Positions 1 through 16,287 of a DNA stretch of 32,000 nucleotides are shown piece after piece. Under the pieces are notes generated by a model. It saw nothing but the letters and a program-made list of their open reading frames with translations. It had not been told where the DNA came from and made no database searches. The stretch's first letter is position 1. Each line of letters begins with the position of its first letter. Source of the stretch: Sedimentisphaera cyanobacteriorum (GTDB lineage: Bacteria; Planctomycetota; Phycisphaerae; Sedimentisphaerales; Sedimentisphaeraceae); the NCBI RefSeq assembly GCF_001997385.1, contig NZ_CP019633.1:2040001-2072000 (forward strand), read 5' to 3'. Made by a program: the position numbers and the translations under genes.

Positions 1-174
1 AAGTCCGGTTAACGCAGAATCTGCATTTTCTGAAAGGTTTTTGCCGGATTTTGGCGAATTTACGGAGATTCCCGCTAGTCGGCAGGCCGCTTCAGAGAAC
101 ATCTCGACCAGGATGGCTCGGCGATGAGCGGCAGAGAGTTTTTCGGCATAGCTTGGCGATTTAAGTTTTGACAT
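1..174 (-). CDS. Hypothetical protein, N-terminal 58 codons only (gene runs off the left edge)
   Basis: ATG at 174 with GGAG 6 nt upstream. Translation is MSKLKSPSYAEKLSAAHRRAILVEMFSEAACRLAG... The first 31 codons are duplicated at 11158-11250. Confidence 0.45.
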   Translation of the reverse strand, partial: MSKLKSPSYAEKLSAAHRRAILVEMFSEAACRLAGISVNSPKSGKNLSENADSALTGL

Positions 175-264
175 GTTCAGCTCCAATCGGGGGTTCGGTT
201 TCGGTTTACCTGACACCCGTTGTTAACTCACTGAATTGTCATGCTGTCACGATAGAGCGGGGTT
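82..264. repeat. Repeat A, copy 1 (5' end and upstream region of the gene at 1-174)
   Basis: About 183 bp, roughly 90% identical by eye to 11158-11339, same orientation. Confidence 0.9.
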
Positions 265-312
265 CATGATAGCTGGTTGTTAAGCGAAATCCGGCGGGAT
301 GAGAGCTCGCGA

Positions 313-692
313 CCAAAGTGTGGTACGTTTTGAAAAGATAGAATCGTCTGCCACGCGATTTACCCGAAGATGGTTCGATTATGGTAAGAGAGCAAAACAA
401 TAGAACTTTTGGCAGAGAGGTTTAGAGAGTTCCGGGCCAGTTCGGCGGAGAATTTACCGTTTTATTGGCAGCCCAAAGAAAACAGAGAGCGGTAGGATAG
501 AACCGCCTTAAGCCATAAATCACCCGAAACCCCCCAATTTTACGCCAAATATGCGGATATTGAAAAAGCCCAGCCATTTCCATGACCGGGCTTCTTCGTT
601 AATCGTTAGCAGTGGATTTTACGCCACTGGTTGTTTTTGGCTCCGTATAAAAACGGCACAGGGGTAAATTAGATAGAAATTTACTGCCATTC
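313..692. repeat. Repeat B, copy 1 (non-coding, about 380 bp)
   Basis: Collinear with 15911-16287, roughly 85-90% identical by eye. No conserved ORF. Four conserved GATAGAA-type heptamers and conserved hairpins. Confidence 0.85.
563..593 (-). terminator. Rho-independent terminator-like hairpin inside repeat B
   Basis: Minus strand reads AAGCCCGG-tcatggaaatgg-CTGGGCTT followed by TTT. It is conserved in copy 2 near 16168-16198. Confidence 0.45.
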
Positions 693-823
693 TATATTTG
701 GGGCGGTTTACAGATATTATTTTTTGATGCAAAATTAACATAAGGCAATTAATGCCCCCCGATAGCCTCAGCAAAAGGTCATTGTTAAAAGAAATGTGGC
801 GATTCAAAAATATGAAATAAAGA

Positions 824-1708
824 TTATTTTCGAGATCTTCTAATGGTAGCAGCTCCTAAAGCACCTAATCCGAAAAGAAGAGCAGTTGTTGGTTCTGGAA
901 TTGCAGTACCTTGGTATTGACCTGTTTGAACTCTACCAAAAAATGCAGAATCATATCCTAGTCCAATTTCTCCATTATTGTAAGTCAAATCTTCTAGTGA
1001 TCCAAAAGCGCCATTAAGCAGTCCACCATTACCAGTAAATGTTCCATCTCTATTGAAGTCAAGGAAATAATTTTCTCTTGAACTTGGAGCATCTTTAGTT
1101 GTAAGTAAGAAACCAATGTTTCCATTGTCTAATTTATAGGCTTCTGCACCAGTAGGTGTTCCATATTGTGATCCTAAAACTCCAAAGTTGATTGTGTCAG
1201 TAACTAAAAGAGAATTCAAATCCCATTCTTTTCCAATAATTTCATTATTGCCATTCACTGCGAATGAATATGCTTTATTTTCACTAGCTAGAGCTCCAAG
1301 ACCGAATGAATTCAGTCCAGCACTTCCTAGTGTGCCTTGCGAACCAAAAGGAGCAAAATTACCAGTATTATTATCCATTCTATAAATCACATTATCAATT
1401 CCTAAATGTAGTGTATAATCATTTCCTAAGGACGCAGCATCCTGCATGGTATGTTCATTAGAATATTCCGCAGTCTCTTGGAAGTTTCCAGAGAAATTCT
1501 TATCTAGTTTAAAAGTGTCGGAGTTTCCGGTTAAGTAGAAATCATCAGTTGCTTGTGACATACCGTATATCGGTCTATCCGTCAATGTGGACTGATCAGG
1601 ATTAAATGACACTATCGCACCATCAGCTTTCTGTGCACTTCCAACAAGTGCTGCAAGACCTACTAAACCACCAGCAAGGATGTTTCTTAGTGTTTTTTTA
1701 AATGACAT
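824..1708 (-). CDS. PEP-CTERM sorting-domain protein (secreted, Gly/Asn-rich)
   Basis: The ORF track starts at 1747. I prefer the ATG at 1708 (AAGGAG 10 nt upstream), which gives the signal peptide MSFKKTLRNILAGGLVGLAALVGSA. The C-terminus is IPEPTTALLFGLGALGAATIRRSRK. Confidence 0.85.
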   Translation of the reverse strand: MSFKKTLRNILAGGLVGLAALVGSAQKADGAIVSFNPDQSTLTDRPIYGMSQATDDFYLTGNSDTFKLDKNFSGNFQETAEYSNEHTMQDAASLGNDYTLHLGIDNVIYRMDNNTGNFAPFGSQGTLGSAGLNSFGLGALASENKAYSFAVNGNNEIIGKEWDLNSLLVTDTINFGVLGSQYGTPTGAEAYKLDNGNIGFLLTTKDAPSSRENYFLDFNRDGTFTGNGGLLNGAFGSLEDLTYNNGEIGLGYDSAFFGRVQTGQYQGTAIPEPTTALLFGLGALGAATIRRSRK

Positions 1709-1767
1709 TTGAATATTACTCCTTAATAATAAGCTGACATTTCCCATTTAAACTGTTAAAAACATAA

Positions 1768-1796
1768 ATTCTAATAACGATATCCTAATTTTACAA
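1768..1796 (-). promoter_or_regulatory. Candidate sigma70-type promoter for the PEP-CTERM gene
   Basis: Minus strand reads TTGTAA, 17 nt, TAGAAT, about 60 nt upstream of the ATG at 1708. Confidence 0.35.
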
Positions 1797-2126
1797 AATT
1801 CAGACCCGCAGGGTCAATAAAATTTTATTCCATGCCTAGTTTTACTCAAAACTGTGTACATGTACGTCTTCAGCAAAAAACTAATGGGGACAGTCACCTA
1901 TTTTCTTAGTTAATAATCCTATTATACTTCTCCCTTTAAATACCACAACACAAACTTTGACAAAATTTATCAGCAAATGCACTATGAAAGGCAGATGTTA
2001 GAAATTAGATGGTAGAAATTAGATTTTTTAATGGGTAAGGAACTTTCTGACCCGCGGATCCTTCGCCTGCTAAAGCAGGACACGAAGAGCTGCGAAGCAA
2101 AATCCTAAATCAAAAGCTATAAATCC

Positions 2127-2153
2127 GAAAAATAAGGAATCGGCTTAGCCGAT
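2127..2153 (-). terminator. Candidate terminator after the 874-aa gene
   Basis: Minus strand reads ATCGGC-taa-GCCGAT followed by tccttattttt. Confidence 0.35.
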
Positions 2154-2230
2154 GCTTTAAAAAGGGTTGTCATGCCGACCGAAGCGGTGTCCGAGTGAAT
2201 GTGCTTGTTCTGCCCCTGCACATTGCCCCT

Positions 2231-4855
2231 CTATCTCTGCCTTCTTGTCTTCCTATAAATCCCGACCTCCTTGATGAAGATCGCAGCCTTCTCGTCTTCG
2301 CAGGCAAAGCGAAAGCGAACCTTTGCATCAGTCGAGAATGTTGCAGAATTGTGTTCGACCCGGATATATCCGTAGTCGGTCGAGCGATTGTTGAAATCGC
2401 CCCTGCCAGGTCCGTATCCTCGCTCGAATTCCCGCAGATTCACCCAATCACCATCCGACCAAAGATCGACAAAGAGTGTTCCACCTGACGCCACTCCCTC
2501 TGGCAGGTAGCGAAATGCAATCTTCAGTTCCTCGCTTGAGGAAAGGTCTATCGTTTCCCGATGTACCATTTGAGAACCTGGCGTCATTCGGACCGCCTCT
2601 TTCTCCGGATCGAGGGAGCAGTGATTGCCCTCACAAGCGAACCCTTCGAGGTTTTCTGTGAATGTCGCGCGGCGTATTTCATCGAACTGGTTTGGAATGT
2701 AGATATCGTTGAGAAATCGGATGACGGCGCCAGCCACTCCTTCGGGATCATCTTCAGGTGAATAGTGACCCGTCCTGAATTGCGGTTGCTCCAGACCAAA
2801 TGCGCCTGGGGTGCTTGAAATGTATTCGTCTCGCCGATTCTGCACATCGGGCATGTCCATGCTCTCCCAGATGACCAGATAGGGCCTGTCATAGGAGGAA
2901 GTCAGAAAATCCCAGGCTTTCTGATTGGCCTTCGCTTCCGGCCAGGTGGCATCTTCAGGGACCATTTCAGGAAATGCGCGAATCGAAGCCTGATAGTCAC
3001 CCGTTGGATAAGGAGCGTCGTAGCCTCTTTTCTCGGCGTCCGTGCCGGGAGGCAAGCCCATGTTCTGCCGGACGTCATTACGGAAGACCACCGCGCCGAT
3101 AGGAACCTTAGGAACCGAACGGACAAAACTTCGCCAGCGATCATGGCGCTTTGCGATTCCCCATCGCCCTCGGTTCAGTCCCGCATTCCCATTGATGAAT
3201 CCATCAAAACGATCCGGGTAATGCTCCGCCATCAGGCGCGCGCCCAGCGGATGCCCGTAGTCGTGACCGAACAAAACGACTTCTTTGAGAGCGAGTTCAG
3301 GGTCTTCGTCCAGTTGCTTGAACGCCTGCCGGATCCACTCAAGGTGGCGATCATACGTGTAGTCGGACTCTTTTGCCGGTTTGTCGGATTTCCCGTGGCC
3401 GACATAATCAATCCTAATCGTCCGATAACCCGCTTCGTTGATCAGCGGAACGACCTTGCGAAAGAGATACGACCATGACGGGTTTCCGTGGAGCATCAGC
3501 AAGGTGGGCCGATTGGCCGGTCCGGAGACCGCGTAATGCATGCGGATTCGGCGGTTGCCGTCTGGCAGATTCGGATCATCCACATAGAGATAACGCGGCT
3601 CGAATGGATAACCGCGCAGATTGGCGAAGTGCTCATCCGGAGTGCGCAGCAGTTCCATTGCGCCGTTCTCGGGGGCCTTCTGCTTGCTCTGTGGACTGTC
3701 GGCCTTGCGCGCATTCTTCTGGAAAAACTCCCACATGAGGTCATTAGCGGAGATGTCCTTGGTGGACTTCCCCAAGAAGGCTACGGGCGGATTCTGACCC
3801 GGCCATGTGTGTCCGCCACCCTCAATCTTGATCAGCACCACTTCCGATCCGTCCCGGCCGTTGCCCCAAGTCTTTCGCACGACCTGCATCCCATCGTCGG
3901 CGACATCCGGCAACTTCTGAACTCTCGGAACCGGGCCGCAGCCGTTCGCCTTCACCCAGGCCTGGATCGAGTGATCCACCGAGAAGAACTCGGGTCGGAG
4001 GAATGCCGGGACGTTCGGAGACCCTTTCCCCTTTCCACCCTTGAACGGGGCCAGCTCGTCCGCCGTCCCGTGGAAGTGGATGACCGACACCGGCCGAGAG
4101 GGGGTGCACGTCTCGGTCCCCATCGGCCCGCCGACCGGAGCGATCGCCGCGAACCGGTCGGCCAGTTCGGACGCTACCCGGTACGCCATCATCCCACCGT
4201 TGGAGATGCCAGTTGCGAAGACCCGTTCCTTGTCCACATTCACGACTGCTTCCAGGTCGCCGAGCAAAGCCTTTGTGAACCCCACGTCGTCGATCTTCTT
4301 CCGCTTGGCATACCCACCGACGTTGCCGGCGTTGAACGTCAGATTCTTATCTTTGTCGGTCCCACTGCCGAACGGGTAGACGACAACGAATCCGGCGTCA
4401 TCCGCCTTCTCGTTAAGACCGCTCAGCCGGATCATACTCTGCGGGTTGCCGCCGCCGCCGTGAAATGCGACTACAACTGGCGTTTTTCGATCCGCTGTGT
4501 AATTCGGAGGAACGTGGATTCGGTAACGGCGTTCTTGTCCTTCTACGTCAATGGTCCGGGTGCGATCGCCCGCTCCGAAGGCGCCCCCGGCTTCCTCGGG
4601 CTGCGCAGGACGACGCATGGATCGCGCGATCGCACCGGCGAATTCCCGGAAGCTGAGCAAACCGTCGTTGTCTAGGTCAGCCCCCTCCAGACGCGATTCT
4701 AACCGTGGGACGGTTTTGAGTTCAGTCGCCGATAGCTGACCGTCTTTGTTGGCGTCCAGCCGCTCAAACCCTTGCCGCAGGCGGGGGCCGTCCTGAGCGG
4801 CCGCACAACAGACCAAGAAATACAGCAAGCATAAAAGGACGGATGTCTGTCTCAT
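2231..4855 (-). CDS. Secreted multidomain hydrolase: signal peptide, EF-hand loops, PHB-depolymerase/LpqC-type esterase, haloalkane-dehalogenase-like alpha/beta hydrolase, C-terminal beta-rich domain
   Basis: 874 aa. EF-hand loops DANKDGQLSATE and DLDNDGLLSFRE. Esterase motifs VAFHGGGGNP and GISNGGMMA. The second fold shows LMLHGNPSWSYLFRK...GHGKSDKP...LFGHDYGH. GGAGG RBS present. Confidence 0.9.
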   Translation of the reverse strand: MRQTSVLLCLLYFLVCCAAAQDGPRLRQGFERLDANKDGQLSATELKTVPRLESRLEGADLDNDGLLSFREFAGAIARSMRRPAQPEEAGGAFGAGDRTRTIDVEGQERRYRIHVPPNYTADRKTPVVVAFHGGGGNPQSMIRLSGLNEKADDAGFVVVYPFGSGTDKDKNLTFNAGNVGGYAKRKKIDDVGFTKALLGDLEAVVNVDKERVFATGISNGGMMAYRVASELADRFAAIAPVGGPMGTETCTPSRPVSVIHFHGTADELAPFKGGKGKGSPNVPAFLRPEFFSVDHSIQAWVKANGCGPVPRVQKLPDVADDGMQVVRKTWGNGRDGSEVVLIKIEGGGHTWPGQNPPVAFLGKSTKDISANDLMWEFFQKNARKADSPQSKQKAPENGAMELLRTPDEHFANLRGYPFEPRYLYVDDPNLPDGNRRIRMHYAVSGPANRPTLLMLHGNPSWSYLFRKVVPLINEAGYRTIRIDYVGHGKSDKPAKESDYTYDRHLEWIRQAFKQLDEDPELALKEVVLFGHDYGHPLGARLMAEHYPDRFDGFINGNAGLNRGRWGIAKRHDRWRSFVRSVPKVPIGAVVFRNDVRQNMGLPPGTDAEKRGYDAPYPTGDYQASIRAFPEMVPEDATWPEAKANQKAWDFLTSSYDRPYLVIWESMDMPDVQNRRDEYISSTPGAFGLEQPQFRTGHYSPEDDPEGVAGAVIRFLNDIYIPNQFDEIRRATFTENLEGFACEGNHCSLDPEKEAVRMTPGSQMVHRETIDLSSSEELKIAFRYLPEGVASGGTLFVDLWSDGDWVNLREFERGYGPGRGDFNNRSTDYGYIRVEHNSATFSTDAKVRFRFACEDEKAAIFIKEVGIYRKTRRQR

Positions 4856-4890
4856 GTAAGATTCCTCCTGTCTATCGCCAGAACGACAAC
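4045..4890. repeat. Near-identical duplicated tract, copy 1 (5' third of the 874-aa gene plus RBS)
   Basis: Matches 10115-10960 at a fixed offset of 6070. Shadow ORFs 4465-4656 and 10535-10726 translate identically. Confidence 0.85.
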
Positions 4891-4945
4891 AATCACCTCT
4901 TGGGGTGCCTACACGACAACAAGGTGAATGATTTTGTTCAGTTTC

Positions 4946-7600
4946 CTATTTCATGATGCCTTTGAATATCCAGGCGGTGTTGTGGTTCTTGCGATCGTTG
5001 GCCGCGCCGTCGTAGCCGCCGGTGTAGAATTCGCGGGTATTCCAGGGCGCGAACTCGAGGGTGCGGGTGGAGACAAGCAGCGGATGCGGATCAAGGTTCG
5101 GATCGAACACGCGGACCGTGTCGTAGGTGGCGTCGGCGTGCCGAATCAGCAGCCAGGCGGCGCGGGTGTCGTTGGGCTTGATTCCCGCCACGGTGACCCA
5201 GTGGATCGGTTGGCCGGTAACCGGATGCCGGCCGGGAACGAGGCGGTTGTAGGCGACCAGCCTGCCGCCGCGGAAGTTGCCGAGCTGCTCTTTGAGGAAT
5301 TGCTGGGAGTTGAGTTCATCGGTGACCTTGTGCCCATCTTCAGGGTCGATGCGGAGGATGCGGACTTCCTGTTCTCTGGAGCCGAGTATGACCTCGTGGG
5401 TGCCGTCGGGCGCGGCTACGGCTGTTATTCCGCGCAAGCCAGCGCCGGGCCGCTGTTCCGGTTTCCAGCGAAAGACCGCCGTCCACCTCGGCTCGGGGCC
5501 GTCGCGACGTACCAACAATCGCGGCGACACGGAGGCGTAGAGCCGGCCGTTGGCCACGGCAAAACCCTGGCAGCGCTTAAACGGGCTGTCATCAAAATCG
5601 GGGTTCGCATACTCCGGCGTCGATTCCCACCGGATGCGCCCGGGCACGGTAGCGTCGTAGCTGCCGCGGTAGACCTCGCCGGCGCCGGTGCCCGCAAACA
5701 GGTATTCGACGCCGGTCTTCGCGTCCCGGTGAAAGCCGAAGGCGCGGATGTAGGCCCGGTTCGCATTCGTCACGATCCGGCTTTCGTCCCACCCGCCCGA
5801 TCCGTCGTTTCTGACGAAACACACGAGCGCGCCCGACCCCCGGGAACGAATCAGCCCGGCGTCGGCAACGAGCAGGGTAACGGGCGATCCCAGTTTCTCG
5901 CCACGGTGATCGACCGAGAAGGTCACCGAGTCCATCGCGTTGATTCGAAGAGCCCCCGAGAAATTGTGTTCCAGGCGCCACAATTGGTCGGGCCCATCCT
6001 TGCGGAGGATCTGCGCGCCGGGCCGTGGGTCGCTGCCGGGTTGATCGGTCCAGTAGCCGAGACCGGCGAACAATTTTCCTTCGTGCGCAACCAGATGCAT
6101 GGTCTCGGTGCCGCCCAGGAAATGCCCCTCGGGATCGCGCGTTCCCGCAAGATAACTATGTTCGAAGGTCACGCTATTTTGGCTCCCCGCGCCCTCACGA
6201 TCGGGCGGTTCCGCAGCGTAGGCGGTGATCCGGGCGGGAAATCGCGAAGCATCGTCGCCAGCGTGCAGCCGCATGATCAGCGCTGTCATCGGATCGTCCA
6301 CCGTGCCAATGAAGGCATTGATCTGACCGTGATCAAGCGGAGCGACATCGATGGCTTGCGCCGGCGTGCAAGCCTCCCGGAGCGCGCGTGCGAAGTCCGG
6401 CGCGAAGCGGTTCAGGAGCATCCGCGTGCCGCCGTAGAAGATCAGGGTGGGCGGAATCTGCTTGTCAGGCTTTACGTGCAATCGGGGCGAGGCGTCGCGC
6501 CAGTTGGCCGGTTTGTCCGTGAAAGCGTTGTGATAGAGTGCCGTCATGCCTTTGCCGTCTTGCGCCTCGAGGTAGCCCGCGATGTCCAGTGCGGCGGTGT
6601 CCAGCAACACGTTGCTCTTGAGGATCGCCAGAGATTTGCCTTCGGCCTTGAGGAAGCGATCGTTCGTGCCGATCAGGCCGGCCAGGTGCGCTCCGGCAGA
6701 GTGCCCCATCAAATGTATGCCAGCCGGATCACCCCCATAGTCATCGATGTGATCGTGAATCCAGGCTATCGCCTTGGCGCAGTCCTGCGCGTGAACCGGA
6801 TGCTGCACGCCCGCGTCGTTCGGCCCTTGCGGCGACAAGCGATAATTGATCGAGGCGTAGATATAGCCGTTACTGACGAAATGGTGCATCTTGCCGCCGA
6901 CGATGGCTCGATTGGCCTTGTCGCCTCCCCGCCAGCCGCCACCATGAATCATGACAAGAACTGGGCGCCCCGTTTGCGTCGTTTTGCCTTCCGGCACGTA
7001 GAGGTCCAAGCTCAGCAGGTTCGGGTCGACGCCCTCGATCTCGTCGTAGCGGAGATCGAGATGGGCGGTGTGCGGGGGTTCCTGCGGCATCGCAGGCGCA
7101 TTTCGTTCCGTTTCCGTCCTGCGATTCCGCGGCCCCGCGTTGTTGCCCGGCAGTTCGTTCTGCTCGATAACCCCGTCGCCATTGCGATCGAGCCTGTCGA
7201 ACCAATCTGGGCCACCGGCTTCGGCCTGGGTGAACTTGCCGTCGTTGTCAGCATCGAGTCGTTGGAACAGGCGTTCTTGACGGGTCACCTCAGACTCCGT
7301 CTCTGGCAATGCACCGTTCATGGCCGCGGGCGCCGGCCGGTTCTGGCGACGTTCCTCCCGTCGCCAGCTGCGGGCTTCATCCGGGGTGATTGTGCCGTCG
7401 CCGTTTGCGTCGGCATCGGCTCCCGCCAAGCGTTCGGCAACCGGGGCAAAGCGGGGCGCCTCCTCGTGCGACAAACTGCCGTTGCGGTCGGAGTCGAGAC
7501 GTTTGAAGGCGCGGTCGAGACGATCACCGGCGGCTTGGGCATAGACCGGGCCAGGCTGCAGCATCGCCGCGAAACAGACGAGTGCTAGGACAGACTTCAT
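4946..7600 (-). CDS. Secreted EF-hand + alpha/beta-hydrolase (esterase/lipase-type) protein with a large C-terminal domain of unknown function
   Basis: 884 aa. Signal peptide MKSVLALVCFAAMLQPGPVYAQA. EF-hand loops DSDRNGSLSHEE, DADANGDGTITPDE, DADNDGKFTQAE and DRNGDGVIEQNE. Hydrolase motifs VMIHGGGW and GHSAGAHL. Confidence 0.9.
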   Translation of the reverse strand: MKSVLALVCFAAMLQPGPVYAQAAGDRLDRAFKRLDSDRNGSLSHEEAPRFAPVAERLAGADADANGDGTITPDEARSWRREERRQNRPAPAAMNGALPETESEVTRQERLFQRLDADNDGKFTQAEAGGPDWFDRLDRNGDGVIEQNELPGNNAGPRNRRTETERNAPAMPQEPPHTAHLDLRYDEIEGVDPNLLSLDLYVPEGKTTQTGRPVLVMIHGGGWRGGDKANRAIVGGKMHHFVSNGYIYASINYRLSPQGPNDAGVQHPVHAQDCAKAIAWIHDHIDDYGGDPAGIHLMGHSAGAHLAGLIGTNDRFLKAEGKSLAILKSNVLLDTAALDIAGYLEAQDGKGMTALYHNAFTDKPANWRDASPRLHVKPDKQIPPTLIFYGGTRMLLNRFAPDFARALREACTPAQAIDVAPLDHGQINAFIGTVDDPMTALIMRLHAGDDASRFPARITAYAAEPPDREGAGSQNSVTFEHSYLAGTRDPEGHFLGGTETMHLVAHEGKLFAGLGYWTDQPGSDPRPGAQILRKDGPDQLWRLEHNFSGALRINAMDSVTFSVDHRGEKLGSPVTLLVADAGLIRSRGSGALVCFVRNDGSGGWDESRIVTNANRAYIRAFGFHRDAKTGVEYLFAGTGAGEVYRGSYDATVPGRIRWESTPEYANPDFDDSPFKRCQGFAVANGRLYASVSPRLLVRRDGPEPRWTAVFRWKPEQRPGAGLRGITAVAAPDGTHEVILGSREQEVRILRIDPEDGHKVTDELNSQQFLKEQLGNFRGGRLVAYNRLVPGRHPVTGQPIHWVTVAGIKPNDTRAAWLLIRHADATYDTVRVFDPNLDPHPLLVSTRTLEFAPWNTREFYTGGYDGAANDRKNHNTAWIFKGIMK

Positions 7601-7761
7601 AGCGTCTCCAGGGAAGGCATTGGGGGAACGGAAGCAAGTATGATGGTCAAGCCGATGGTGATGATTACTTTCATGGTGACGAGCCCCTTCATACAGGGCG
7701 ACCCTGCCGCCACGGCGGAGATTTCATTGCCAATGATTTGAGCCGCCCGGAGCGCCTTCAT
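7597..7761 (-). CDS. Possible 54-aa small membrane ORF bridging two hydrolase genes (alternative 24-aa version from the ATG at 7674)
   Basis: Not in the ORF track (under 60 aa). MKALRAAQIIGNEISAVAAGSPCMKGLVTMKVIITIGLTIILASVPPMPSLETL. Its ATG overlaps the stop of the 1055-aa gene (ATGA) and its stop overlaps the ATG of the 884-aa gene (ATGA). Confidence 0.3.
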   Translation of the reverse strand: MKALRAAQIIGNEISAVAAGSPCMKGLVTMKVIITIGLTIILASVPPMPSLETL

Positions 7762-10700: not shown

Positions 10701-10925
10701 CGCACCGGCGAATTCCCGGAAGCTGAGCAAACCGTCGTTGTCTTGGTCAGCCCCCTCCAGACGCGATTCTAACCGTGGAACGGTTTTGAGCTCAGTCGCC
10801 GATAGCTGACCGTCTTTGTTGGCGTCCAGCCGCTCAAACCCTTGCCGCAGGCGGGAGCCGTCCTGAGCAGCCGCGCAATTGACGAAGATATACAGCGAGC
10901 ACAAAAGGATGAATGTCAGTCTCAT
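7758..10925 (-). CDS. Secreted mosaic hydrolase: EF-hands + PHB-depolymerase/LpqC-type esterase, central EF-hand array, C-terminal domain shared with the 884-aa protein
   Basis: 1055 aa. About the first 385 aa parallel the 874-aa protein, nearly identical over roughly 245 aa. The central part has at least 5 D-x-D/N-x-D-G loops. The C-terminal roughly 450 aa align with the 884-aa protein (FEKDYFPGTRDPNGQLLGGTELMWLTAHEGKLFAG vs FEHSYLAGTRDPEGHFLGGTETMHLVAHEGKLFAG). Confidence 0.9.
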   Translation of the reverse strand: MRLTFILLCSLYIFVNCAAAQDGSRLRQGFERLDANKDGQLSATELKTVPRLESRLEGADQDNDGLLSFREFAGAIARSMRRPAPPEEAGGAFGAGDRTRTIDVEGQERRYRIHVPPNYTADRKTPVVVAFHGGGGNPQSMIRLSGLNEKADDAGFVVVYPFGSGTDKDKNLTFNAGNVGGYAKRKKIDDVGFTKALLGDLEAVVNVDKERVFATGISNGGMMAYRVASELADRFAAIAPVGGPMGTAECNPASPVSVIHFHGTADELAPFNGGRGKGTSNVPASMRPEFFSVEHSINCWVEANGCAKEPTVTPMPDTADDGMRVIRKVWGEGKNGSEVVLYEIDGGGHTWPGMEPPVAMLGASTTDISANDLMWDFFQKHAKRAHKVKSADAVHTGLTEEGLSGSVNPRGNVLMYHGPGGAIFEFVEWRQNQQTGSELTRPERLFQRLDADNDGKVTQAEAGGPDWFDRLDRNGDGKLSGNELTQFPSLARILRFADRDQDGALSIEELRTVSARWPGREASPGGTSEAKPAPAGSDKPKDDADKAANKALNLRYHAMDFDGDGVVTQREFPNQTIFKVFDQDRSGEITRTEFVAKLGKSAERGPITPESALVPIGKQVDWFTFEKDYFPGTRDPNGQLLGGTELMWLTAHEGKLFAGTSMLKSDVTVKPYPGYPGPQILRKDRGDGPWIAEESFGRDHLRINCLEVLRFTEDPDGKPLPKPVSLLAAGLYDIRRGEKWLTVAVRNDETGTWTLSRIAPLPEDQPGYAGIRDLIVHDGEVFAAADFGGIYRGVYDPQAPGRLRWTPENEMAGGPYGRPQRMEICDGVLYAAFGYSNQRQRGKQGGLFRRISGAKPRWERVYSWFENEGPFEFLMRGLTTVTGSDGKPALLGALERPPLPVIRRIEPTNEFAATDEINYENYFANVFDAWPNVGVFMTGAALNRFTPFTRPDDGRAVYLVTTFVIHPRSPQAGSNGAYFLVRNGPGSYDWGAIKDPANQPDGVRLQGVRTIEPSPFPDEKGKVWYFGGFAADFAYVRDTAWIYKGTLQKGEEYKP

Positions 10926-10960
10926 AGAAGCTCCTCCGGCCTATCGCCGAACTTCTTATT
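10115..10960. repeat. Near-identical duplicated tract, copy 2
   Basis: See 4045-4890. Offset is 6070. Confidence 0.85.
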
Positions 10961-11003
10961 CTACACAAATCTCTTTTTCCCATCAGAAAATTCTTAAAAC
11001 GAA

Positions 11004-11032
11004 ATTGTATCGATTCGCCATCTGGCTGTCAA
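11004..11032 (-). promoter_or_regulatory. Near-consensus sigma70-type promoter for the hydrolase gene string
   Basis: Minus strand reads TTGACA, 17 nt, TACAAT, about 80 nt upstream of the ATG at 10925. Confidence 0.5.
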
Positions 11033-11085
11033 GCGGTTATTGCAGGGATTCTCTTGACTCCATGGGAGGATCGCCTAAAATAACA

Positions 11086-11250
11086 TCAGAAATTGAGTGA
11101 TATGGAGATTTGTGTATAATCAGGGTATGACATTATGCAGGATTCAGGTAGCAGAATGCAGGCCGCTTCAGAGAATATCTCGACCAGGACAGCTCGGCGA
11201 TGGGCGGCAGAGAGTTTTTCGGCATAGCTTGGCGATTTAAGATTTGACAT
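11086..11250 (-). pseudogene. Truncated duplicate of the gene at 1-174
   Basis: MSNLKSPSYAEKLSAAHRRAVLVEIFSEAAC matches copy 1 for 31 codons. Homology stops at 11158 and the frame then runs into unrelated sequence and a stop. Confidence 0.6.
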
Positions 11251-11339
11251 ATTCAGCTCCAATGAGTGTTCGGTTTCGATTTACCTGACAGGCGTTGTTA
11301 ACTCGCTGAATTGTCATGCTGTCACAAAAGAGCGGGGTT
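11158..11339. repeat. Repeat A, copy 2
   Basis: Matches 82-264. Confidence 0.9.
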
Positions 11340-11425
11340 GAAAAGAACGGACTGTTAAGGTGGTTGAATAAATGTTGAAATATTCAACAAAATGGCAATA
11401 TAAGCCATATATTTGCAGTTTTTAC

Positions 11426-11454
11426 TTGTAAAAGTGGATAGGGGGGGGTATAAT
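11426..11454 (+). promoter_or_regulatory. Candidate promoter with a G8 homopolymer in the spacer, facing the DGR
   Basis: TTGTAA (11426-11431), a 17-nt spacer ending in GGGGGGGG (11441-11448), then TATAAT (11449-11454). Confidence 0.4.
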
Positions 11455-11518
11455 AGATACTTTAAATAGTGTTTTGATCGTCAAGACACGCTAGAATCTG
11501 AAAATTAATGGTTTTTTT

Positions 11519-13171
11519 GAGCCTGTTGCATAAATAATTGTCAGTGATTGCTCTTTTACAAGTGAATAAATCCAGCTTTTCGGTTATAATAGGCCAAAAG
11601 GATTGCTAAACATGTAAAGGATTACGAAATGGCTTACAATTTCCTGCCTTGCGACCGAAATCAGGCGTATCTTCTGCCTCCCTCATTGACGGATTGGCTG
11701 CCGGAAGATCATCTGGCGTGGTTTGTTCTTGATGCGGTTGAACAAATCGACCTATCGCAGTTTTACAAAAAATACCGTACTGATGGAGTCGGCAATTCAG
11801 CTTTTCATCCTTCGATGATGGTTGCTCTGCTGATATATTCCTACTGTAGCGGCGAGCGTTCCAGCAGAAAGATAGAAAAGCACTGCCAGACGGATGTAGC
11901 CTATAAAGTTGTTACTGCCAATCAATATCCCGACCACAGTACGATCAGCCGATTTCGCAAGGATAACCAGTCGCATTTAAAGAAGTTGTTTCTGGAAATC
12001 CTCAGGCTTTGTGTTGAAGCAGACATTGTTAAACTCGGCAATGTTTCATTGGATGGGACAAAGATCAAAGCCAATGCTTCGTTATCAGCCAATCGAACAC
12101 TAAAGCACCTGGAGCAGGAAATCGATAAGATGCTATCCGAGGCGGACGCTAAAGACGCCGAGGAAGACAAAGCTTATGGCGCTGATAAGCGAGGCGATGA
12201 ACTGCCCGAAGATATGCGGGACCGCAATAGCCGAATAAACCGTCTAAAGGCCTGTAAAGAGCGTTTAGAGCAGGAAAAAGCAGAAGCCGAAAAACAACAG
12301 CAGGACAAGATAGATGAGCGGAAATCCAAAGAAGAAAATACCGGCAAAAAGCCTCGTGGTCGTAAGCCCAAACCTGCCGAAGAAGCTGGAAACAAAGATG
12401 CCAAAGCCAATGTTACCGACCCCGACAGCAGAATCATGAAAACTCGAAAAGGTTTCGTTCAGGGTCTTAATGCTCAGGCGGTGACAACAGAGCAACAGAT
12501 TATCGTTGCTGAGGATGTGACCCAAGAGGAAAATGATAAACAGCAATTACATCCGATGCTTGAGCAGGCCGAAGAAAATCGACAGGCCGTTGAAATCGAA
12601 GAGGAAATGGGTGTGGCTTTGGCAGATGCTGGCTATTGCAGTGAAGATAATTTTACAAAGGAGCCTGCTGGTGACATTGAGTTGCTGGTGGCGACACAGA
12701 AAGATTATAAGCAGCGAAAGGCAATGGCCGAGCAACCGCCGCCGGAAGAACCGATACCGGACGGCTTGTCGCCGACAGAATTGATGGAACGTAAACTGCT
12801 GACCGAACGAGGGCGAGAATTATATAAGATTCGAGGTCAGACAGTCGAACCAGTGTTTGGGCAGATTAAAGATGTTCGCGGTTTTGATCGATTTATGCAA
12901 CGAGGCATTGAGGCTTGCCGCGGTGAGTGGTCGCTGATTTGCGCTACGCACAACCTTTTGAAGTTGTGGCGAAGCAAAAAGGCCTGCTGGAATTGATAAA
13001 AAGGCCGTTTTTATTCGTTTTGACGTGTAATTTTGCTTGTTTTTTTGGCGAAAACACGATACCATATAAAAAGCTAAGAAAAGGTGTTTGGGAAACAGAG
13101 AATTGAGCCGTCTGCCCCAGACAGCCGTCGAATCCAATGGTTGGATTCGAAAATCATTGTGCAACAGGCTC
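11519..13171 (+). mobile_element. IS1182-family insertion sequence (about 1.65 kb)
   Basis: Terminal inverted repeats GAGCCTGTTGCA at 11519-11530 and, as reverse complement, 13160-13171, with an imperfect extension to about 21 bp. T-runs on both flanks could be a TTTT target duplication. It contains a single transposase ORF. Confidence 0.8.
11629..12996 (+). CDS. IS1182-family (IS5-related, DUF772 + DDE) transposase
   Basis: 455 aa. N-terminus NFLPCDRNQAYLLPPSLTDWLPEDHLAWFVLDAVEQIDLSQFY...PDHSTISRFR, a central Lys/Glu-rich coiled segment, and C-terminal GQTVEPVFGQIKDVRGFDRFMQRG. Confidence 0.92.
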   Translation: MAYNFLPCDRNQAYLLPPSLTDWLPEDHLAWFVLDAVEQIDLSQFYKKYRTDGVGNSAFHPSMMVALLIYSYCSGERSSRKIEKHCQTDVAYKVVTANQYPDHSTISRFRKDNQSHLKKLFLEILRLCVEADIVKLGNVSLDGTKIKANASLSANRTLKHLEQEIDKMLSEADAKDAEEDKAYGADKRGDELPEDMRDRNSRINRLKACKERLEQEKAEAEKQQQDKIDERKSKEENTGKKPRGRKPKPAEEAGNKDAKANVTDPDSRIMKTRKGFVQGLNAQAVTTEQQIIVAEDVTQEENDKQQLHPMLEQAEENRQAVEIEEEMGVALADAGYCSEDNFTKEPAGDIELLVATQKDYKQRKAMAEQPPPEEPIPDGLSPTELMERKLLTERGRELYKIRGQTVEPVFGQIKDVRGFDRFMQRGIEACRGEWSLICATHNLLKLWRSKKACWN

Positions 13172-13189
13172 TTTTAGAGGAGAAAAGAG

Positions 13190-14047
13190 ATGAGAAGTTT
13201 ATTGGCAGTTTGTTTATGTGTATGTTTCATTTCGGGTATTTCATTTGCAGGCACAGTGACGGTTGGGGGTATTGACCTTGATTTTGTGACGATTGGTAAT
13301 GCGGGCAACGCCGCTGACAGTACCGGTTATGGTGCAGTCGATTATGCGTATCAGATCGGCAAATATGAGATCACCAATGGCCAGTGGAATGCCTTTGTAT
13401 CCGCTGCGGGTGCACCGACAGGCAATCCAAGTCACGCTTATGACGGAAGTGCTTACTGGACGGGCACGAACGTGCCGACGAACAGTGTCAGTTGGTATGA
13501 GGCGGCTCAGTTCTGCAATTACCTGACCAGCGGTGACAGGTATTCCGGGGCCTACAATTTCAGCCAAAGCGGAGATTTTCTTGGTGTTGACCGCGCTTCT
13601 GCCATTTCGGCGTATGGCACCACATACGTTATTCCTACTGAGGATGAATGGTACAAGGCGGCGTATTACACCGGTAGCGGTTATTCGCTGTATGCCAATG
13701 GAACGAATACAGCTCCGATTGCAGGTACTGATACGAACTATGATTATGTAATAGGACAGCCCTGGGAAGTTGGTGTTGGAAATGGCACCCAAGAACAGAA
13801 CGGGACCTATGATATGATGGGCAATGTTTGGGAGTGGAACGAAGCCCTGATCTCTGGTCCCAGTCGCGGCATCCGCGGTGGCTCCTACTACGTCAGCGAC
13901 TTCGACCTCAGTTCGTCCATCCGGGGCAGCGGCTACCCGAACAACGAGAGCATCAGCGTAGGGTTCCGCGTCGCCTCCGTCCCTGAACCGTGCAGTTTAG
14001 TGTTGCTTGGGTTAGGTGGATTGGCTTTACGATACAGGAAACGTTAG
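13190..14047 (+). CDS. DGR variable (target) protein: signal peptide, FGE-sulfatase/C-type-lectin-fold domain, PEP-CTERM anchor
   Basis: 285 aa. Motifs SVSWYEAAQFCNYL, PTEDEWYKAAY, GNVWEWNE, RGGSY and GFRVAS, then VPEPCSLVLLGLGGLALRYRKR. VR lies at the 3' end. Confidence 0.9.
   Translation: MRSLLAVCLCVCFISGISFAGTVTVGGIDLDFVTIGNAGNAADSTGYGAVDYAYQIGKYEITNGQWNAFVSAAGAPTGNPSHAYDGSAYWTGTNVPTNSVSWYEAAQFCNYLTSGDRYSGAYNFSQSGDFLGVDRASAISAYGTTYVIPTEDEWYKAAYYTGSGYSLYANGTNTAPIAGTDTNYDYVIGQPWEVGVGNGTQEQNGTYDMMGNVWEWNEALISGPSRGIRGGSYYVSDFDLSSSIRGSGYPNNESISVGFRVASVPEPCSLVLLGLGGLALRYRKR
13860..13980 (+). repeat. DGR variable repeat (VR)
   Basis: Gap-free alignment with TR at offset 1730. By hand count all 22 mismatches fall at TR adenines. 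Confidence 0.9.
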
Positions 14048-14087
14048 GGGCTTTCCCTTTATCCTTTTTTTCTTTTACCCTTTTGGG

Positions 14088-14110
14088 GAGCAGGGGCGAA
14101 GCCCCTGCTC
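14088..14110 (+). promoter_or_regulatory. GC-rich hairpin between target gene and avd
   Basis: GAGCAGGGGC-gaa-GCCCCTGCTC, a perfect 10-bp stem. There is no adjacent T-run on either strand. Confidence 0.5.
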
Positions 14111-14135
14111 GCTCGAAAATTGAATTTTAAAATGA

Positions 14136-14519
14136 ATGAATTCTGAGAAACCCAACGGTTTAAAAGGCGATGTGCCCATCTTGCTGTCCAAATGGTACGA
14201 TGTCTGCAAATGGATACTGGCGAAAGTTGACAGCTTTCCAAAGAACCAGAGGTTCATATTTGGCACACGCCTGGCAGACCGGTCACTGGGGATTTTGGAA
14301 ACACTGGTTGAGGCCGCTTACAGCAGCGGTGATAAAAAATTAGAGTTGCTCAGGACCGCCAATCGTGATCTGGCGGTCTTGAGATGGCTGATCCGCATGG
14401 CCAAAGATCGGCAGATCATCACGCTGAAGCAGTATCAATATGCCTGCGGTCTACTGGTTGAGTGCGGGCGTATGCTGGGGGGCTGGATAAAGGATTCCGA
14501 AAAAAGGAACCGGCCATGA
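14136..14519 (+). CDS. avd: DGR accessory variability determinant (Avd-like four-helix-bundle protein)
   Basis: 127 aa, helical and basic (WYDVCKWILAKVDSFPKNQRFIFGTRLADRSL...). It sits between the target and the RT, and its stop overlaps the RT start (ATGA at 14516-14519). Confidence 0.8.
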   Translation: MNSEKPNGLKGDVPILLSKWYDVCKWILAKVDSFPKNQRFIFGTRLADRSLGILETLVEAAYSSGDKKLELLRTANRDLAVLRWLIRMAKDRQIITLKQYQYACGLLVECGRMLGGWIKDSEKRNRP

Positions 14520-15562
14520 AACGACATAAACAACTCTATGAGTCGGTCTGTTCCTTTGAAAACCTCTATGCCGCTGCGGTAAAGGCCATGAAGGGCAAAC
14601 GCGGCAAACGGCCGGGAGCGGGCTTTTATGCCGAGATGGAGGATGAGATCATCACGCTGCAAAAGCAGCTTCTGGATGGAACCTATTGTCACGGCGGGTA
14701 TCATTACTTCGAGATTCACGAACCGAAACAGCGGACCGTAGCGGCGGCGGAATTTCGGGACCGGGTGGTACATCATGCCGTTATCCGGGTTATCGAGCCG
14801 CTGTTTGAGAGACGGTTTATCGAAGATAGCTATGCATGCCGGGTGAATAAGGGTACGCATGCTGGAATGAAACGGGCGGCACATTATGCGCGGCGTTTTG
14901 ATTATGCCCTGAAGTGTGACATTCGCAAGTATTTTGCCCATATTGACCATGAAATTCTTCTGTATTTATTCGCAAAGGTCATCGGAGATAAACAGCTGCT
15001 GGACCTGCTGCAACATGTCATCGGCAGTCATCGTGACGGCTGGCGGATGGTAGTGCCGAAAGGCGGGCTGCCGCTGTTTGACGGTCAGCTGGCGAGCCGG
15101 GGACTGCCTATCGGAAACCTGACCAGCCAGTTTTCGGCGAACGTTTACCTCAATCCGCTGGATCATTTTGTCAAACACGATTTACGCTGCAAGGGGTATG
15201 TGCGGTATATGGATGACTTCCTGCTGTTTAGTAATGACAAGCATCAGTTGCGGGATTGGGGTGATGCAGTCCGTGAAATCGTCAACGGTTTGAGACTGAA
15301 GATTCATCCCGATAAATATCGATTGCTGCGGTGTGACTGCGGGGTGGACTTTTGCGGATTTGTGGTGTTTGGTAACGGTCGTATTCGTGTACGTCGATCA
15401 ACGGCGCGGCGTTTCCACAGACGGTATCAAAAGAACCTGGAAGCTGTTAATAATTGTTTGGGCGATGCTGCGTCTCTGTCGCAGTCAGTGGCTGCCTGGG
15501 TCGGCCATGTCAAACACGCCCAAAGCTGGAATTTGAGAAAGGCGGTTTTATGCGGTTCATAA
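14516..15562 (+). CDS. DGR reverse transcriptase
   Basis: The ORF track starts at 14462. I prefer the ATG at 14516 ([11 protein letters not shown]...), which overlaps the avd stop. It has the IGNLTSQ motif typical of DGR RTs and the YMDD catalytic box. Confidence 0.93.
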
Positions 15563-15589
15563 AGGGCAGCGGGATTAATGGCGATGGAT

Positions 15590-15710
15590 CCAATCGCGGC
15601 ATCCGCGGTGGCTCCTACAACAACAACGACAACAACCTCAGATCGTCCAACCGGAACAACAACAACCCGAACAACGAGAACAACAACATAGGGTTCCGCG
15701 TCGCCTCCAA
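15590..15710 (+). ncRNA. DGR template repeat (TR)
   Basis: Starts 28 nt after the RT stop. It is a run of AAC-rich triplets (42 A in 120 nt by hand count) and matches VR at every non-A position. Confidence 0.9.
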
Positions 15711-15826
15711 GCCCCTTACGATAAATCTGCCGGTCAGAATCGCAACGGTGTCATAGCTGCTGCGACCGTACCGTTCAGGGACTACCCGCCTGTCCTGCGG
15801 CTCACTGGTGAGCGGCAAATAACAAG

Positions 15827-15877
15827 GCTCTGTTTGCGGCAAGTAGATTCTCGAAAGGCGTGGACAGAGCTGTTTTT
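15827..15877 (+). terminator. Possible terminator of the DGR transcript
   Basis: GCTCTGT, about 30 nt, ACAGAGC, then TGTTTTT. The stem is weak and the loop long. Confidence 0.3.
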
Positions 15878-15910
15878 AATATACGGTTCCGGTGGAAAAT
15901 ATGTCAGCAG

Positions 15911-16287
15911 CCAAAGTGTGGTACGTTTTTAAAAGATAGAATCGTCGGTCACATGATTTGCCCGAAGATGGCGCGATTATGGTAAGAGAGCAAAACGATA
16001 GAACTTTTGGCAGAGAGGTTAAGAGAGTTCCGGGCCAGTTCGGCGGAGGATATGCCTTTTTTTTGGCGGCCCAAAGAAAACAGAGATGTGTAGGATAGAA
16101 TCGCCTCAAGCGAGGCAATCCCCAAATACCGGGATTTAGAGCCAAATATCCAGATAAGAAGAAAGCCCAGCCATTTTCATGACCGGGCTTCTTCGTTAAT
16201 CGTTAGCAGTGGTTTTTACGCCACTGGTTGTTTTTGGCTCCGTATAAAAACGCCACAGGGCTGTTTAGGATAGAAGCTTACTAGACC
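15911..16287. repeat. Repeat B, copy 2
   Basis: Matches 313-692. Confidence 0.85.

What the first reader, a model, noticed from the sequence alone, without database searches (positions are those of the whole stretch)
82..16287. The DGR cassette occupies a site that is empty in a second copy of the same locus
Repeat A (82-264) and repeat B (313-692) are separated by only 48 bp in copy 1. In copy 2, A (11158-11339) and B (15911-16287) are separated by 4571 bp: the DGR plus the 1653-bp IS. The 48-bp spacer of copy 1 still shows residual similarity to both edges of the cassette (…GTTAAG… on the left, …TCCGG(C/T)GG… on the right). The difference therefore looks like a clean insertion or deletion of a DGR module of about 2.9 kb. 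That is direct within-genome evidence that the whole target-avd-RT-TR unit behaves as a discrete cassette. An 8-bp inverted repeat (GTTGAATA…TATTCAAC, 11363-11390) sits at its left edge.
Basis: seen in the sequence. Interest (0 to 1): 0.7.

Follow-up and report, generated by a model that had tools for sequence, protein, structure and literature searches.

The report
DGR module inserted in island relic
A complete diversity-generating retroelement, from its own promoter to its own terminator, sits as inserted cargo in the spacer of a decayed copy of a mobile-island end that is uninterrupted in a second copy 11 kb away; this fixes the module's edges precisely but is an ordinary way for such elements to be carried.

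Summary
Repeat A (82-284 / 11158-11359, 92%) and repeat B (313-685 / 15911-16282, 86%) are collinear. They are contiguous in copy 1 and split by 4524 bp (11360-15883) in copy 2.

The split holds a bona fide DGR plus a 1653-bp IS1182-family element.

A-B is not a generic locus. It is the end of an island family built on a small gene X, DUF2924 and a large serine recombinase, often next to tRNA-Asn.

Five alignable relatives or copies have the contiguous junction, so copy 2 gained an insertion.

The two window copies are each closer to a copy in another genome than to each other. The event therefore need not have happened in this genome.

The same roughly 20-nt spacer holds unrelated cargo in two relatives: a glycosyltransferase cluster, and PadR with a radical-SAM gene.

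The insert has no target duplication and no terminal repeats. The 8-bp inverted repeat is unremarkable.

Its edges do match a whole transcription unit. Related DGRs (RT 73-82% identical) lie in unrelated contexts and end at the same terminator.

Verdict: a DGR carried as self-contained island cargo. This is a known kind with nicely delimited edges. Interest is modest.

The parts
1..174 (-). Gene X, first 58 codons. X is 79 aa in full and runs off the left end of the window. It is a small helical protein of unknown function and the first gene of the X-DUF2924-serine recombinase operon in relatives.
   Evidence: 100% identical to P0001 of Sedimentisphaera cyanobacteriorum. In L002, L011, L013 and L018 it is followed directly by DUF2924 and a large serine recombinase. 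The structure model shows one helix at residues 9-33 and the rest disordered. No Pfam or NCBIfam match.
82..284 (.). Repeat A, copy 1: the 5' 93 nt of X plus its upstream region, ending in the conserved GGGGTTC-N12-TGTTAAG.
285..312 (.). Uninterrupted junction ('empty site'). The position equivalent to the DGR insertion point lies between 284 and 285 (GTTAAG|CGAAAT).
   Evidence: Alignment of five contiguous junctions.
313..685 (.). Repeat B, copy 1. B-proximal (about 313-548) consists of conserved non-coding blocks. B-distal (549-644) has two hairpins, one an intrinsic terminator, and ends in a 7-nt remnant of the tRNA-Asn 3' end (TGGCTCC, 638-644). Positions 645-685 are shared only with copy 2.
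   Evidence: Relatives lose homology at about 644. In L010, L001, L013 and L015 a tRNA-Asn(GTT) gene abuts this end.
11158..11359 (.). Repeat A, copy 2. It holds only codons 1-31 of X (11158-11250, minus strand), followed by unrelated sequence, so this copy is a relic.
11360..11518 (+). Left part of the insert: the small hairpin at 11363-11390, the sigma-70-like promoter TTGTAA-17-TATAAT (11426-11454) with a G8 tract (11441-11448) in its spacer, and the 5' leader of the target gene.
   Evidence: L007, a DGR with 77% RT identity, has the same CTTGT...poly-G...TATAAT layout with G14.
11519..13171 (+). IS1182-family insertion sequence (transposase 11629-12996). It sits between the DGR promoter and the target gene's ribosome-binding site, 18 nt upstream of the ATG. 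This is a secondary event inside the insert.
   Evidence: Terminal inverted repeats. Transposase domains DUF772, DDE_Tnp_1_6 and DDE_Tnp_1. NF033551 above its cutoff. The flanks are T-runs (TTTTTTT|...|TTTT), so any target duplication cannot be read.
13190..14047 (+). DGR target gene: signal peptide, FGE-sulfatase/C-type-lectin-fold domain, VR (13855-13978) and a PEP-CTERM tail.
14136..14519 (+). avd, the DGR accessory variability determinant.
   Evidence: PF22296. NF033474 at 101 bits against a cutoff of 80.
14516..15562 (+). DGR reverse transcriptase, 348 aa. Its start overlaps the avd stop (ATGA).
   Evidence: RVT_1. 100% identical to P0005 of S. cyanobacteriorum. YMDD and LPIGNLTSQ motifs read from the sequence.
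15585..15708 (+). Template repeat (TR).
   Evidence: 23 of 43 TR adenines are substituted in VR, with no other mismatches inside the repeat.
15709..15883 (+). Conserved region 3' of the TR, ending in a terminator hairpin (stem 15826-15833 / 15864-15871, T-run 15872-15877). The insert ends at 15883.
   Evidence: Conserved in L003, L007 and L008, with compensatory changes in the stem. Homology to relatives stops at 15828-15875.
15884..16282 (.). Repeat B, copy 2. Homology is weak over 15884-15910 and strong from 15911. The tRNA-Asn 3' remnant TGGCTCC is at 16235-16241.
16433..16816 (+). Fragment of a tyrosine recombinase (catalytic domain only, truncated at both ends), lying just outside copy 2. 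It is probably a relic of another element and no link to the insertion was shown.
   Evidence: PF00589 positions 28-160 of 172. NCBIfam scores are far below the cutoffs.

Best explanation
A-B is the end region of a family of integrative islands. The core operon is X, DUF2924 and a large serine recombinase.
- B-distal is an island-borne copy of the tRNA-Asn 3' end and its terminator.
- B-proximal is a conserved non-coding block.
- A is the promoter and start of X.

The window holds two diverged members of this end region. Copy 1 is uninterrupted. Copy 2 is a relic whose recombinase module is gone.

In copy 2's lineage a complete, self-contained DGR transcription unit was inserted into the poorly conserved spacer between CTGTTAAG and YGRAAT. 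The unit runs from its own promoter through the target gene with VR, avd, RT and TR to its own terminator. The insertion occurred by an unknown route, probably illegitimate recombination.

Later an IS1182-family element landed between the DGR promoter and the target gene.

Shown: the anatomy, the direction of change (insertion), and the match between the insert's edges and the DGR's functional edges. Inferred: the mechanism and the place of the insertion. The DGR moves as passive cargo of the island, like a phage 'moron', and not by its own machinery.
For: 1. Contiguous junctions with the conserved GGGGTTC-N11/12-CTGTTAAG-YGRAAT occur in copy 1, L002, L011/12, L013 and L018/19.
2. X is followed by DUF2924 and a large serine recombinase in L002, L011, L013, L014, L015, L018 and L020.
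3. tRNA-Asn(GTT) abuts B in L001, L010, L013 and L015. Remnants of 7-12 nt of the tRNA 3' end sit at B's outer end where no tRNA is present: the window, L002, L011 and L018.
4. The insert runs from 66 nt upstream of a promoter to 6 nt past a terminator that shows covariation in relatives.
5. DGR relatives (RT 73-82% identical) lie in unrelated contexts, and their flanks show no similarity to A or B.
6. The DGR has mutated its VR: all 23 mismatches are at TR adenines.
7. The insert's G+C is about 0.42-0.54, against 0.34-0.49 in most of the window outside the insert and the esterase block.
8. The literature reports abundant horizontal transfer and fast-changing locations of DGRs (PMC5758913).
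Against: - No mechanism is demonstrated. There is no target duplication, no terminal repeats, and no microhomology at 11359|11360 or 15883|15884.
- Three different cargos within about 14 nt of one another are more than random insertion would readily give. That hints at a site-directed process (see rivals).
- It is not proven that B belongs to the island rather than to host DNA downstream of tRNA-Asn. L014 and L020 have extra DNA between the tRNA and B-distal.
- The left of the window is unseen, so the state of copy 1's recombinase module rests only on the absence of an S. cyanobacteriorum DUF2924 protein among the best 120 hits.
Confidence: 0.6

Rival explanations
1. The A|B spacer is a dedicated cargo-capture site of this island family. 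DNA units are inserted there by a site-directed process, for example the island's serine recombinase acting at a secondary site, or breaks made at a protein-bound site. The DGR is one of several captured units.
For: Three unrelated cargos lie within about 14 nt of each other: the DGR after CTGTTAAG, and the L010 glycosyltransferase cluster and L001 PadR/radical-SAM pair both right after GGGGTTCAAA(G/A). The spacer lies between two strongly conserved motifs, directly upstream of the recombinase operon. In all three cases the cargo next to A is transcribed away from X.
Against: There are two different insertion points, whereas a serine recombinase cuts at one fixed dinucleotide. The cargo ends share no motif, and no convincing dyad symmetry is seen (read). 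All three filled copies lack the recombinase, and every intact island is empty. L001, L010 and copy 2 belong to one sub-lineage, so the events may not be independent. A tolerated, unconstrained spacer is a simpler reason for the recurrence.
Confidence: 0.15
2. One reading: a segment was duplicated within this genome, and the DGR then inserted into (or was deleted from) one copy in situ.
For: Both copies share about 41 nt beyond the point where all relatives lose homology (645-685 / 16242-16282), which suggests a common origin of the two window copies.
Against: Each copy is closer to L010, from another organism, than to the other copy. The copies differ by 8-14%. Copy 2 is truncated in X while copy 1 is not. 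The shared 41 nt can also be the other arm of the island's attachment site in a head-to-tail array.
Confidence: 0.15
3. The DGR is itself mobile, either as a transposon-like unit or as a reverse-transcribed copy of its own RNA.
For: The insert equals one functional DGR. Related DGRs sit in unrelated contexts.
Against: No terminal inverted repeats or target duplication. The only transposase belongs to an IS with both of its own ends inside the insert. The insert includes the promoter and 66 nt upstream of it, which an RNA copy would lack. Non-DGR cargo uses the same spacer.
Confidence: 0.05
4. The filled state is ancestral, and the DGR was deleted from copy 1 and from the other contiguous copies.
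For: None beyond formal possibility.
Against: Five contiguous junctions, down to about 66-79% nucleotide identity, keep the same motif order with no scar. No intact island carries a DGR.
Confidence: 0.03
5. The two copies are an assembly artefact.
For: None.
Against: The copies show 8-14% divergence, indels between them, and different flanks on both sides.
Confidence: 0.01

Closest known systems
DGRs carried on horizontally acquired genomic islands, plasmids and prophages (survey of Wu et al. 2018, PMC5758913, including the Legionella pneumophila Corby island DGR)
   Same: A complete target-avd-RT-TR unit inside a mobile-element context. Its G+C differs from much of the surrounding window, it is absent from sister copies, and its close relatives lie in unrelated locations.
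   Different: Here both edges of the unit are fixed to the nucleotide by an uninterrupted sister sequence and four outgroup loci. The carrier is a decayed serine-recombinase island in a planctomycete of the Phycisphaerae (Sedimentisphaera). The target protein ends in a PEP-CTERM sorting signal.
Phage 'morons': self-contained promoter-gene-terminator units found between conserved genes of related prophages (my own knowledge, Hendrix and co-workers; not checked in the paper library)
   Same: The insert runs from its own promoter to its own terminator. It sits in an intergenic spacer between conserved blocks, is transcribed independently of its neighbours, shows no transposition hallmarks, and is present in some relatives and absent in others.
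   Different: The unit is a four-part retroelement of 2.9 kb rather than a single gene. The carrier shows no phage structural genes within reach.
DUF2924 plus large-serine-recombinase integration modules of temperate phages (Wolbachia phage WO, Acidithiobacillus phage AcaML1)
   Same: DUF2924 next to a large serine recombinase (PMC11376236; tblastn matches at 25-29% identity).
   Different: In this family the module is preceded by the small gene X and a roughly 480-bp conserved leader (A-B) ending in a tRNA-Asn 3' remnant. The window itself holds no DUF2924 and no serine recombinase.
Integron gene cassettes
   Same: Different cargos at nearly one position next to a recombinase operon.
   Different: No IntI-type integrase, no attI or attC sites, two distinct insertion points, and cargo units that carry their own promoters. 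The nearby tyrosine recombinase is a fragment far below the family cutoffs.

Membership tests
Diversity-generating retroelement (DGR) | TR/VR pair whose differences are confined to TR adenines | tested here: met
   23 of 23 mismatches within 13855-13978 versus 15585-15708 are at TR adenines, mostly at codon positions 1 and 2.
Diversity-generating retroelement (DGR) | DGR-type reverse transcriptase (RVT_1 with YMDD and the IGxxxSQ motif) | tested here: met
   PF00078. YMDD and LPIGNLTSQ read from the sequence. Thousands of homologues, with neighbours avd and an FGE-sulfatase target in L003, L007 and L008.
Diversity-generating retroelement (DGR) | Accessory protein Avd | tested here: met
   NF033474 equivalog, 101 bits against a cutoff of 80. 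PF22296.
Diversity-generating retroelement (DGR) | Ongoing mutagenic retrohoming | not testable with these tools
   Needs VR amplicon sequencing. The IS between promoter and target may have silenced expression.
IS1182-family insertion sequence | IS1182-type DDE transposase | tested here: met
   NF033551, 324.8 bits against a cutoff of 270.
IS1182-family insertion sequence | Terminal inverted repeats | tested here: met
   11519-11533 / 13157-13171, 14 of 15 complementary.
IS1182-family insertion sequence | Target-site duplication | tested here: inconclusive
   Both flanks are T-runs, so a duplication of up to 4 bp cannot be told from chance.
Large-serine-recombinase integrative island (X-DUF2924-LSR family) | Recombinase module present | tested here: not met
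   No DUF2924 or serine recombinase in the window. Copy 2 keeps only 31 codons of X. Copy 1 runs off the window, and no S. cyanobacteriorum DUF2924 appears among the best 120 hits. The window copies are filed as end regions or relics of this family, not as an active island.
Large-serine-recombinase integrative island (X-DUF2924-LSR family) | Homologous end region (B-A-X) shared with islands that have the recombinase | tested here: met
   66-96% nucleotide identity to L002, L010, L011, L013 and L018.
Large-serine-recombinase integrative island (X-DUF2924-LSR family) | Defined attachment sites and both island ends | tested here: inconclusive
   The tRNA-Asn 3' remnant at B's outer end fits an attachment site. 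The far end was never seen, and L014 and L020 have extra DNA between the tRNA and B.
Transposon-like or self-mobile DGR cassette | Terminal repeats and target-site duplication at the cassette edges | tested here: not met
   None at 11359|11360 or 15883|15884. The 8-bp inverted repeat at 11363 is at background frequency.
Integron cassette | IntI integrase with attI, and attC on the cassette | tested here: not met
   Only a tyrosine-recombinase fragment, at 47.5 bits against a cutoff of 220 for the XerA/integron-integrase model. No shared motif at the cargo ends.

The most novel reading that the evidence does not exclude
The spacer between CTGTTAAG and the X promoter would be a genuine cargo-acquisition hotspot of a widespread tRNA-Asn serine-recombinase island family in Phycisphaerae. 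Whole transcription units, including an entire DGR, would be inserted there by a site-directed mechanism not yet described. That would give a concrete route by which DGRs are passed between mobile elements.
Probability: 0.12. Interest if true: 0.6.

Novelty: new member of a known kind. Interest (0 to 1): 0.33.

Why it matters
DGRs are known to move between genomes, but how they move and what exactly moves are rarely visible.

Here an uninterrupted sister sequence and four outgroup loci fix both edges of a DGR to the nucleotide. The transferred unit is the full transcription unit: promoter, target gene, avd, RT, TR, the conserved region 3' of the TR, and the terminator.

The analysis also shows that the carrier is a decaying tRNA-Asn island whose spacer collects unrelated cargo.

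This is useful for delimiting DGR modules and for annotating Sedimentisphaerales islands. It does not change how DGRs are understood.

Tried and rejected
- **Retrieving the source genome.** Exact-protein look-ups for the window's own genes failed. A 28-mer from B found nothing in genome contigs. The left flank of copy 1 and a genome-wide copy count could not be obtained.
- **RNA and coding searches on B.** Rfam and tRNA search found nothing in the window. B is not a known RNA. RNAalifold supports only the two B-distal hairpins, and B-proximal has no supported structure. No ORF is conserved between the copies.
- **A|B spacer as the island's attP.** Rejected, because the junction is contiguous in islands that are clearly integrated in chromosomes (L013, L015).
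- **B as host DNA downstream of tRNA-Asn rather than island DNA.** Considered at length. It is disfavoured because B occurs without a tRNA in L002, L011 and L018, with a host gene only about 150 nt away in L018, and occurs twice in this window. It is not excluded.
- **IS-mediated delivery of the DGR.** Rejected. There is one IS copy, and both of its ends lie inside the insert, 159 nt from the left edge.
- **RNA-mediated copy.** Rejected because the promoter is included in the insert.
- **GGTGG at both insert edges as a target duplication.** Rejected. The right-hand copy is part of the ancestral junction.
- **Similarity between A/B and the flanks of related DGRs.** None above shuffled controls.
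- **Phage origin.** The nearest viral-contig RT is only 61% identical, and the A pattern is absent from viral contigs. The 'viral' contig L020 with the island module shows transposases and lectin-type proteins but no clear virion genes.
- **Structure of X.** One helix and low confidence (pLDDT 66), not worth a fold search.

Full report
**Observation**

- A: 82-264 matches 11158-11339 at 92% over 183 nt, continuing at lower identity to 284 / 11359.
- B: 313-685 matches 15911-16282 at 86% over 378 columns.
- The repeats are on the same strand and in the same order.
- The gaps are 48 bp and 4571 bp.

The interval in copy 2 holds the following:
- an IS1182-family element of exactly 1653 bp (11519-13171), with terminal repeats GAGCCTGTTGCA and its transposase at 11629-12996;
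- a target gene with an FGE-sulfatase/lectin-fold domain and a PEP-CTERM tail (13190-14047);
- avd (14136-14519);
- a reverse transcriptase (14516-15562);
- a TR (15585-15708) matching a VR (13855-13978).

All 23 TR/VR differences lie at TR adenines, so this is a genuine DGR that has diversified its target.

**What the A-B unit is**

A contains the first 31 codons and the upstream region of a minus-strand gene, X.
- In copy 1, X continues off the window. It is 100% identical to a 79-aa hypothetical protein of Sedimentisphaera cyanobacteriorum, which identifies the source organism. The RT is likewise 100% identical to a protein of that genome.
- In copy 2, X stops being homologous after codon 31.

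Relatives of X are rare: four clusters in 5.8 billion proteins. Contexts recovered through them, through a DNA pattern from A, and through DUF2924 homologues show a consistent architecture: B, A, X, a DUF2924 protein, a 512-535-aa large serine recombinase, and a small protein. This is seen in L002, L011/12, L013, L014, L015, L018/19 and L020/21.

The link to tRNA-Asn is as follows.
- A tRNA-Asn(GTT) gene abuts the outer end of B in L001, L010, L013 and L015.
- Where no tRNA is present, B still ends in 7-12 nt of the tRNA 3' end. This holds for L002, L011, L018 and both window copies (TGGCTCC at 638-644 and 16235-16241).

B has two parts.
- B-distal is two hairpins. The second is an intrinsic terminator with compensatory changes in L011 and L013.
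- B-proximal is a set of strongly conserved non-coding blocks. It has no supported RNA fold, no conserved ORF and no Rfam match.

I read A-B as the tRNA-proximal end of a serine-recombinase island family that carries its own copy of the tRNA-Asn 3' end and terminator. DUF2924 next to a large serine recombinase is already known from phage WO and phage AcaML1 (PMC11376236).

The alternative is that B is host DNA downstream of tRNA-Asn. This is less likely, because B travels without the tRNA in three independent contexts and occurs twice here. It is not excluded.

**Direction of the change**

Five alignable junctions are contiguous and share GGGGTTC-N11/12-CTGTTAAG-YGRAAT: copy 1, L002, L011/12, L013 and L018/19.

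In copy 2 the left flank ends ...CTGTTAAG (11359) and the right flank resumes CGGTTCCGGTGG (15884). The interruption is therefore an insertion of 11360-15883.

**Edges of the insert**

Right edge:
- The region 3' of the TR (15709-15883) is conserved in DGRs whose RTs are 73-82% identical: L003-L009.
- It ends in a hairpin (15826-15833 / 15864-15871) plus a T-run (15872-15877). The stem changes in a compensatory way in L003, L007 and L008.
- Homology to those relatives stops at 15828-15875, and the insert ends at 15883.

Left edge:
- The insert begins 66 nt upstream of a promoter-like site, TTGTAA-17-TATAAT (11426-11454).
- The layout of that site, including a poly-G tract in the spacer, recurs upstream of the L007 target gene.

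The IS lies between this promoter and the ribosome-binding site, 18 nt before the ATG, and is clearly secondary. Without it the insert is 2871 bp: one complete transcription unit.

1. The two window copies are not a recent pair. Copy 1 versus copy 2 is 92% (A) and 86% (B). Each is 94-96% and 87-89% identical to L010, from a different organism. The DGR may have entered copy 2's lineage before that island reached this genome.
2. The same spacer is filled with other things in relatives.
   - L010 has 4.27 kb with four genes: a PMT/LAB_N glycosyltransferase, a GT2, a DUF2062 protein and a hypothetical protein. It begins right after GGGGTTCAAAG and ends before ACGGCCTGTTAAC.
   - L001 has PadR and a radical-SAM gene beginning after GGGGTTCAAAA, and B-proximal is lost.
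   - These breakpoints are about 14 nt from the DGR's.
3. All three filled copies are relics. X is cut at codon 31 in copy 2 and at codon 67 in L010. In L001 only a 16-aa DUF2924 stub remains. Every island with an intact recombinase is compact and empty. The three relics belong to one sub-lineage, so they may not be independent.
4. I found no target duplication, terminal repeats, microhomology or shared cargo-end motif. The 8-bp inverted repeat at 11363-11390 is one of 32 such repeats in the window. The tyrosine recombinase at 16433-16816 is a fragment outside the repeat.

**Mechanism**

The best-supported account is passive carriage. A self-contained DGR module was inserted by an unknown route, probably illegitimate recombination, into an unconstrained spacer of an island end. 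It then persisted in a relic that can no longer excise, and was later hit by an IS.

Other mechanisms considered:
- An RNA-mediated copy is excluded because the promoter is included.
- IS-mediated delivery is excluded because both IS ends are internal to the insert.
- The spacer is not the island's attP, because it is intact in integrated islands.
- A site-directed capture process remains possible (about 0.12-0.15), given three cargos within 14 nt. It is weakened by the two distinct breakpoints and by the absence of recombinase in the filled copies.

**Wider setting**

The two copies bracket a 10.5-kb stretch. It holds a PEP-CTERM gene and three large esterase/EF-hand genes of 57-66% G+C, in a window that is mostly 34-49% G+C outside that block and the insert. 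The two copies also share about 41 nt beyond the tRNA remnant. This fits a head-to-tail array of island relics as well as it fits a segmental duplication. I could not decide between these without the rest of the genome.

**Novelty**

Horizontal transfer of DGRs, their presence on islands, plasmids and phages, and their rapidly changing locations are established (PMC5758913). This case adds nucleotide-level edges for one module and describes its carrier. It is a new member of a known kind, of modest interest.

Noticed in passing
window 11441-11448; L007 564-577: The only G or C homopolymer of 8 nt or more in the 32-kb window is a G8 tract inside the 17-nt spacer of the DGR promoter. The homologous promoter of a related DGR has G14, which makes its spacer about 20 nt. 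Length changes in such a tract would switch the promoter on and off, so expression of this DGR lineage may be phase-variable.
   Followed up: partly
window 11519-13171: The IS1182-family element sits between the DGR promoter and the target gene's ribosome-binding site, 18 nt before the ATG, in the same orientation as the DGR genes. It may silence the DGR or drive it by read-through.
   Followed up: partly
window 14000-14047; L003 1280-2218, L007 689-1642, L008 6006-6941: The DGR target protein ends in a PEP-CTERM sorting signal (VPEPCSLVLLGLGGLALRYRKR) directly after the variable region. The same holds for targets of three related DGRs. This lineage appears to diversify exosortase-sorted surface proteins.
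   Followed up: partly
window 2231-10925: Three large minus-strand genes for esterase/alpha-beta-hydrolase proteins with EF-hand or dockerin-like calcium sites have 57-66% G+C, in a window that is mostly 34-49% outside this block and the DGR insert. They share internal paralogous segments (3710-4236 versus 9780-10306; 7172-7302 versus 9495-9625). This foreign-looking block lies exactly between the two A-B copies.
   Followed up: partly
window 469-485, 16067-16083, 16360-16376: The 17-mer CAGCCCAAAGAAAACAG, one of the most conserved blocks of B-proximal, occurs a third time 78 nt beyond the end of copy 2, just upstream of the integrase fragment. None is expected by chance. It could be a protein-binding site or the last trace of a third island end.
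   Followed up: no
window 16433-16816: A tyrosine-recombinase catalytic-domain fragment of 127 aa, truncated at both ends, lies immediately outside copy 2. It is probably a relic of another integrated element.
   Followed up: partly
window 22442-22655 and 26294-26509: Two 75-86% identical stretches, 3.85 kb apart, cover the upstream region and signal-peptide start (MKNVKR...) of two plus-strand genes. They point to paralogous secreted or lipoprotein genes in a metal-uptake neighbourhood (Fur, DtxR-type repressor, flavodoxin, ChaN).
   Followed up: no
L014 8391-9391; L020 6267-7406: In two intact islands, extra DNA lies between the tRNA-Asn (or its 3' part) and B-distal: a DJ-1/PfpI gene in L014 and two small ORFs in L020. 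Each side has its own hairpin-terminator trailer. This is a second place in the family where cargo or another element accumulates.
   Followed up: partly
window 4928-7588 (+) versus 4946-7600 (-): An 886-aa ORF lies antisense to the 884-aa esterase gene. This is most likely the usual stop-poor antisense frame of a high-G+C gene and not a second gene.
   Followed up: no
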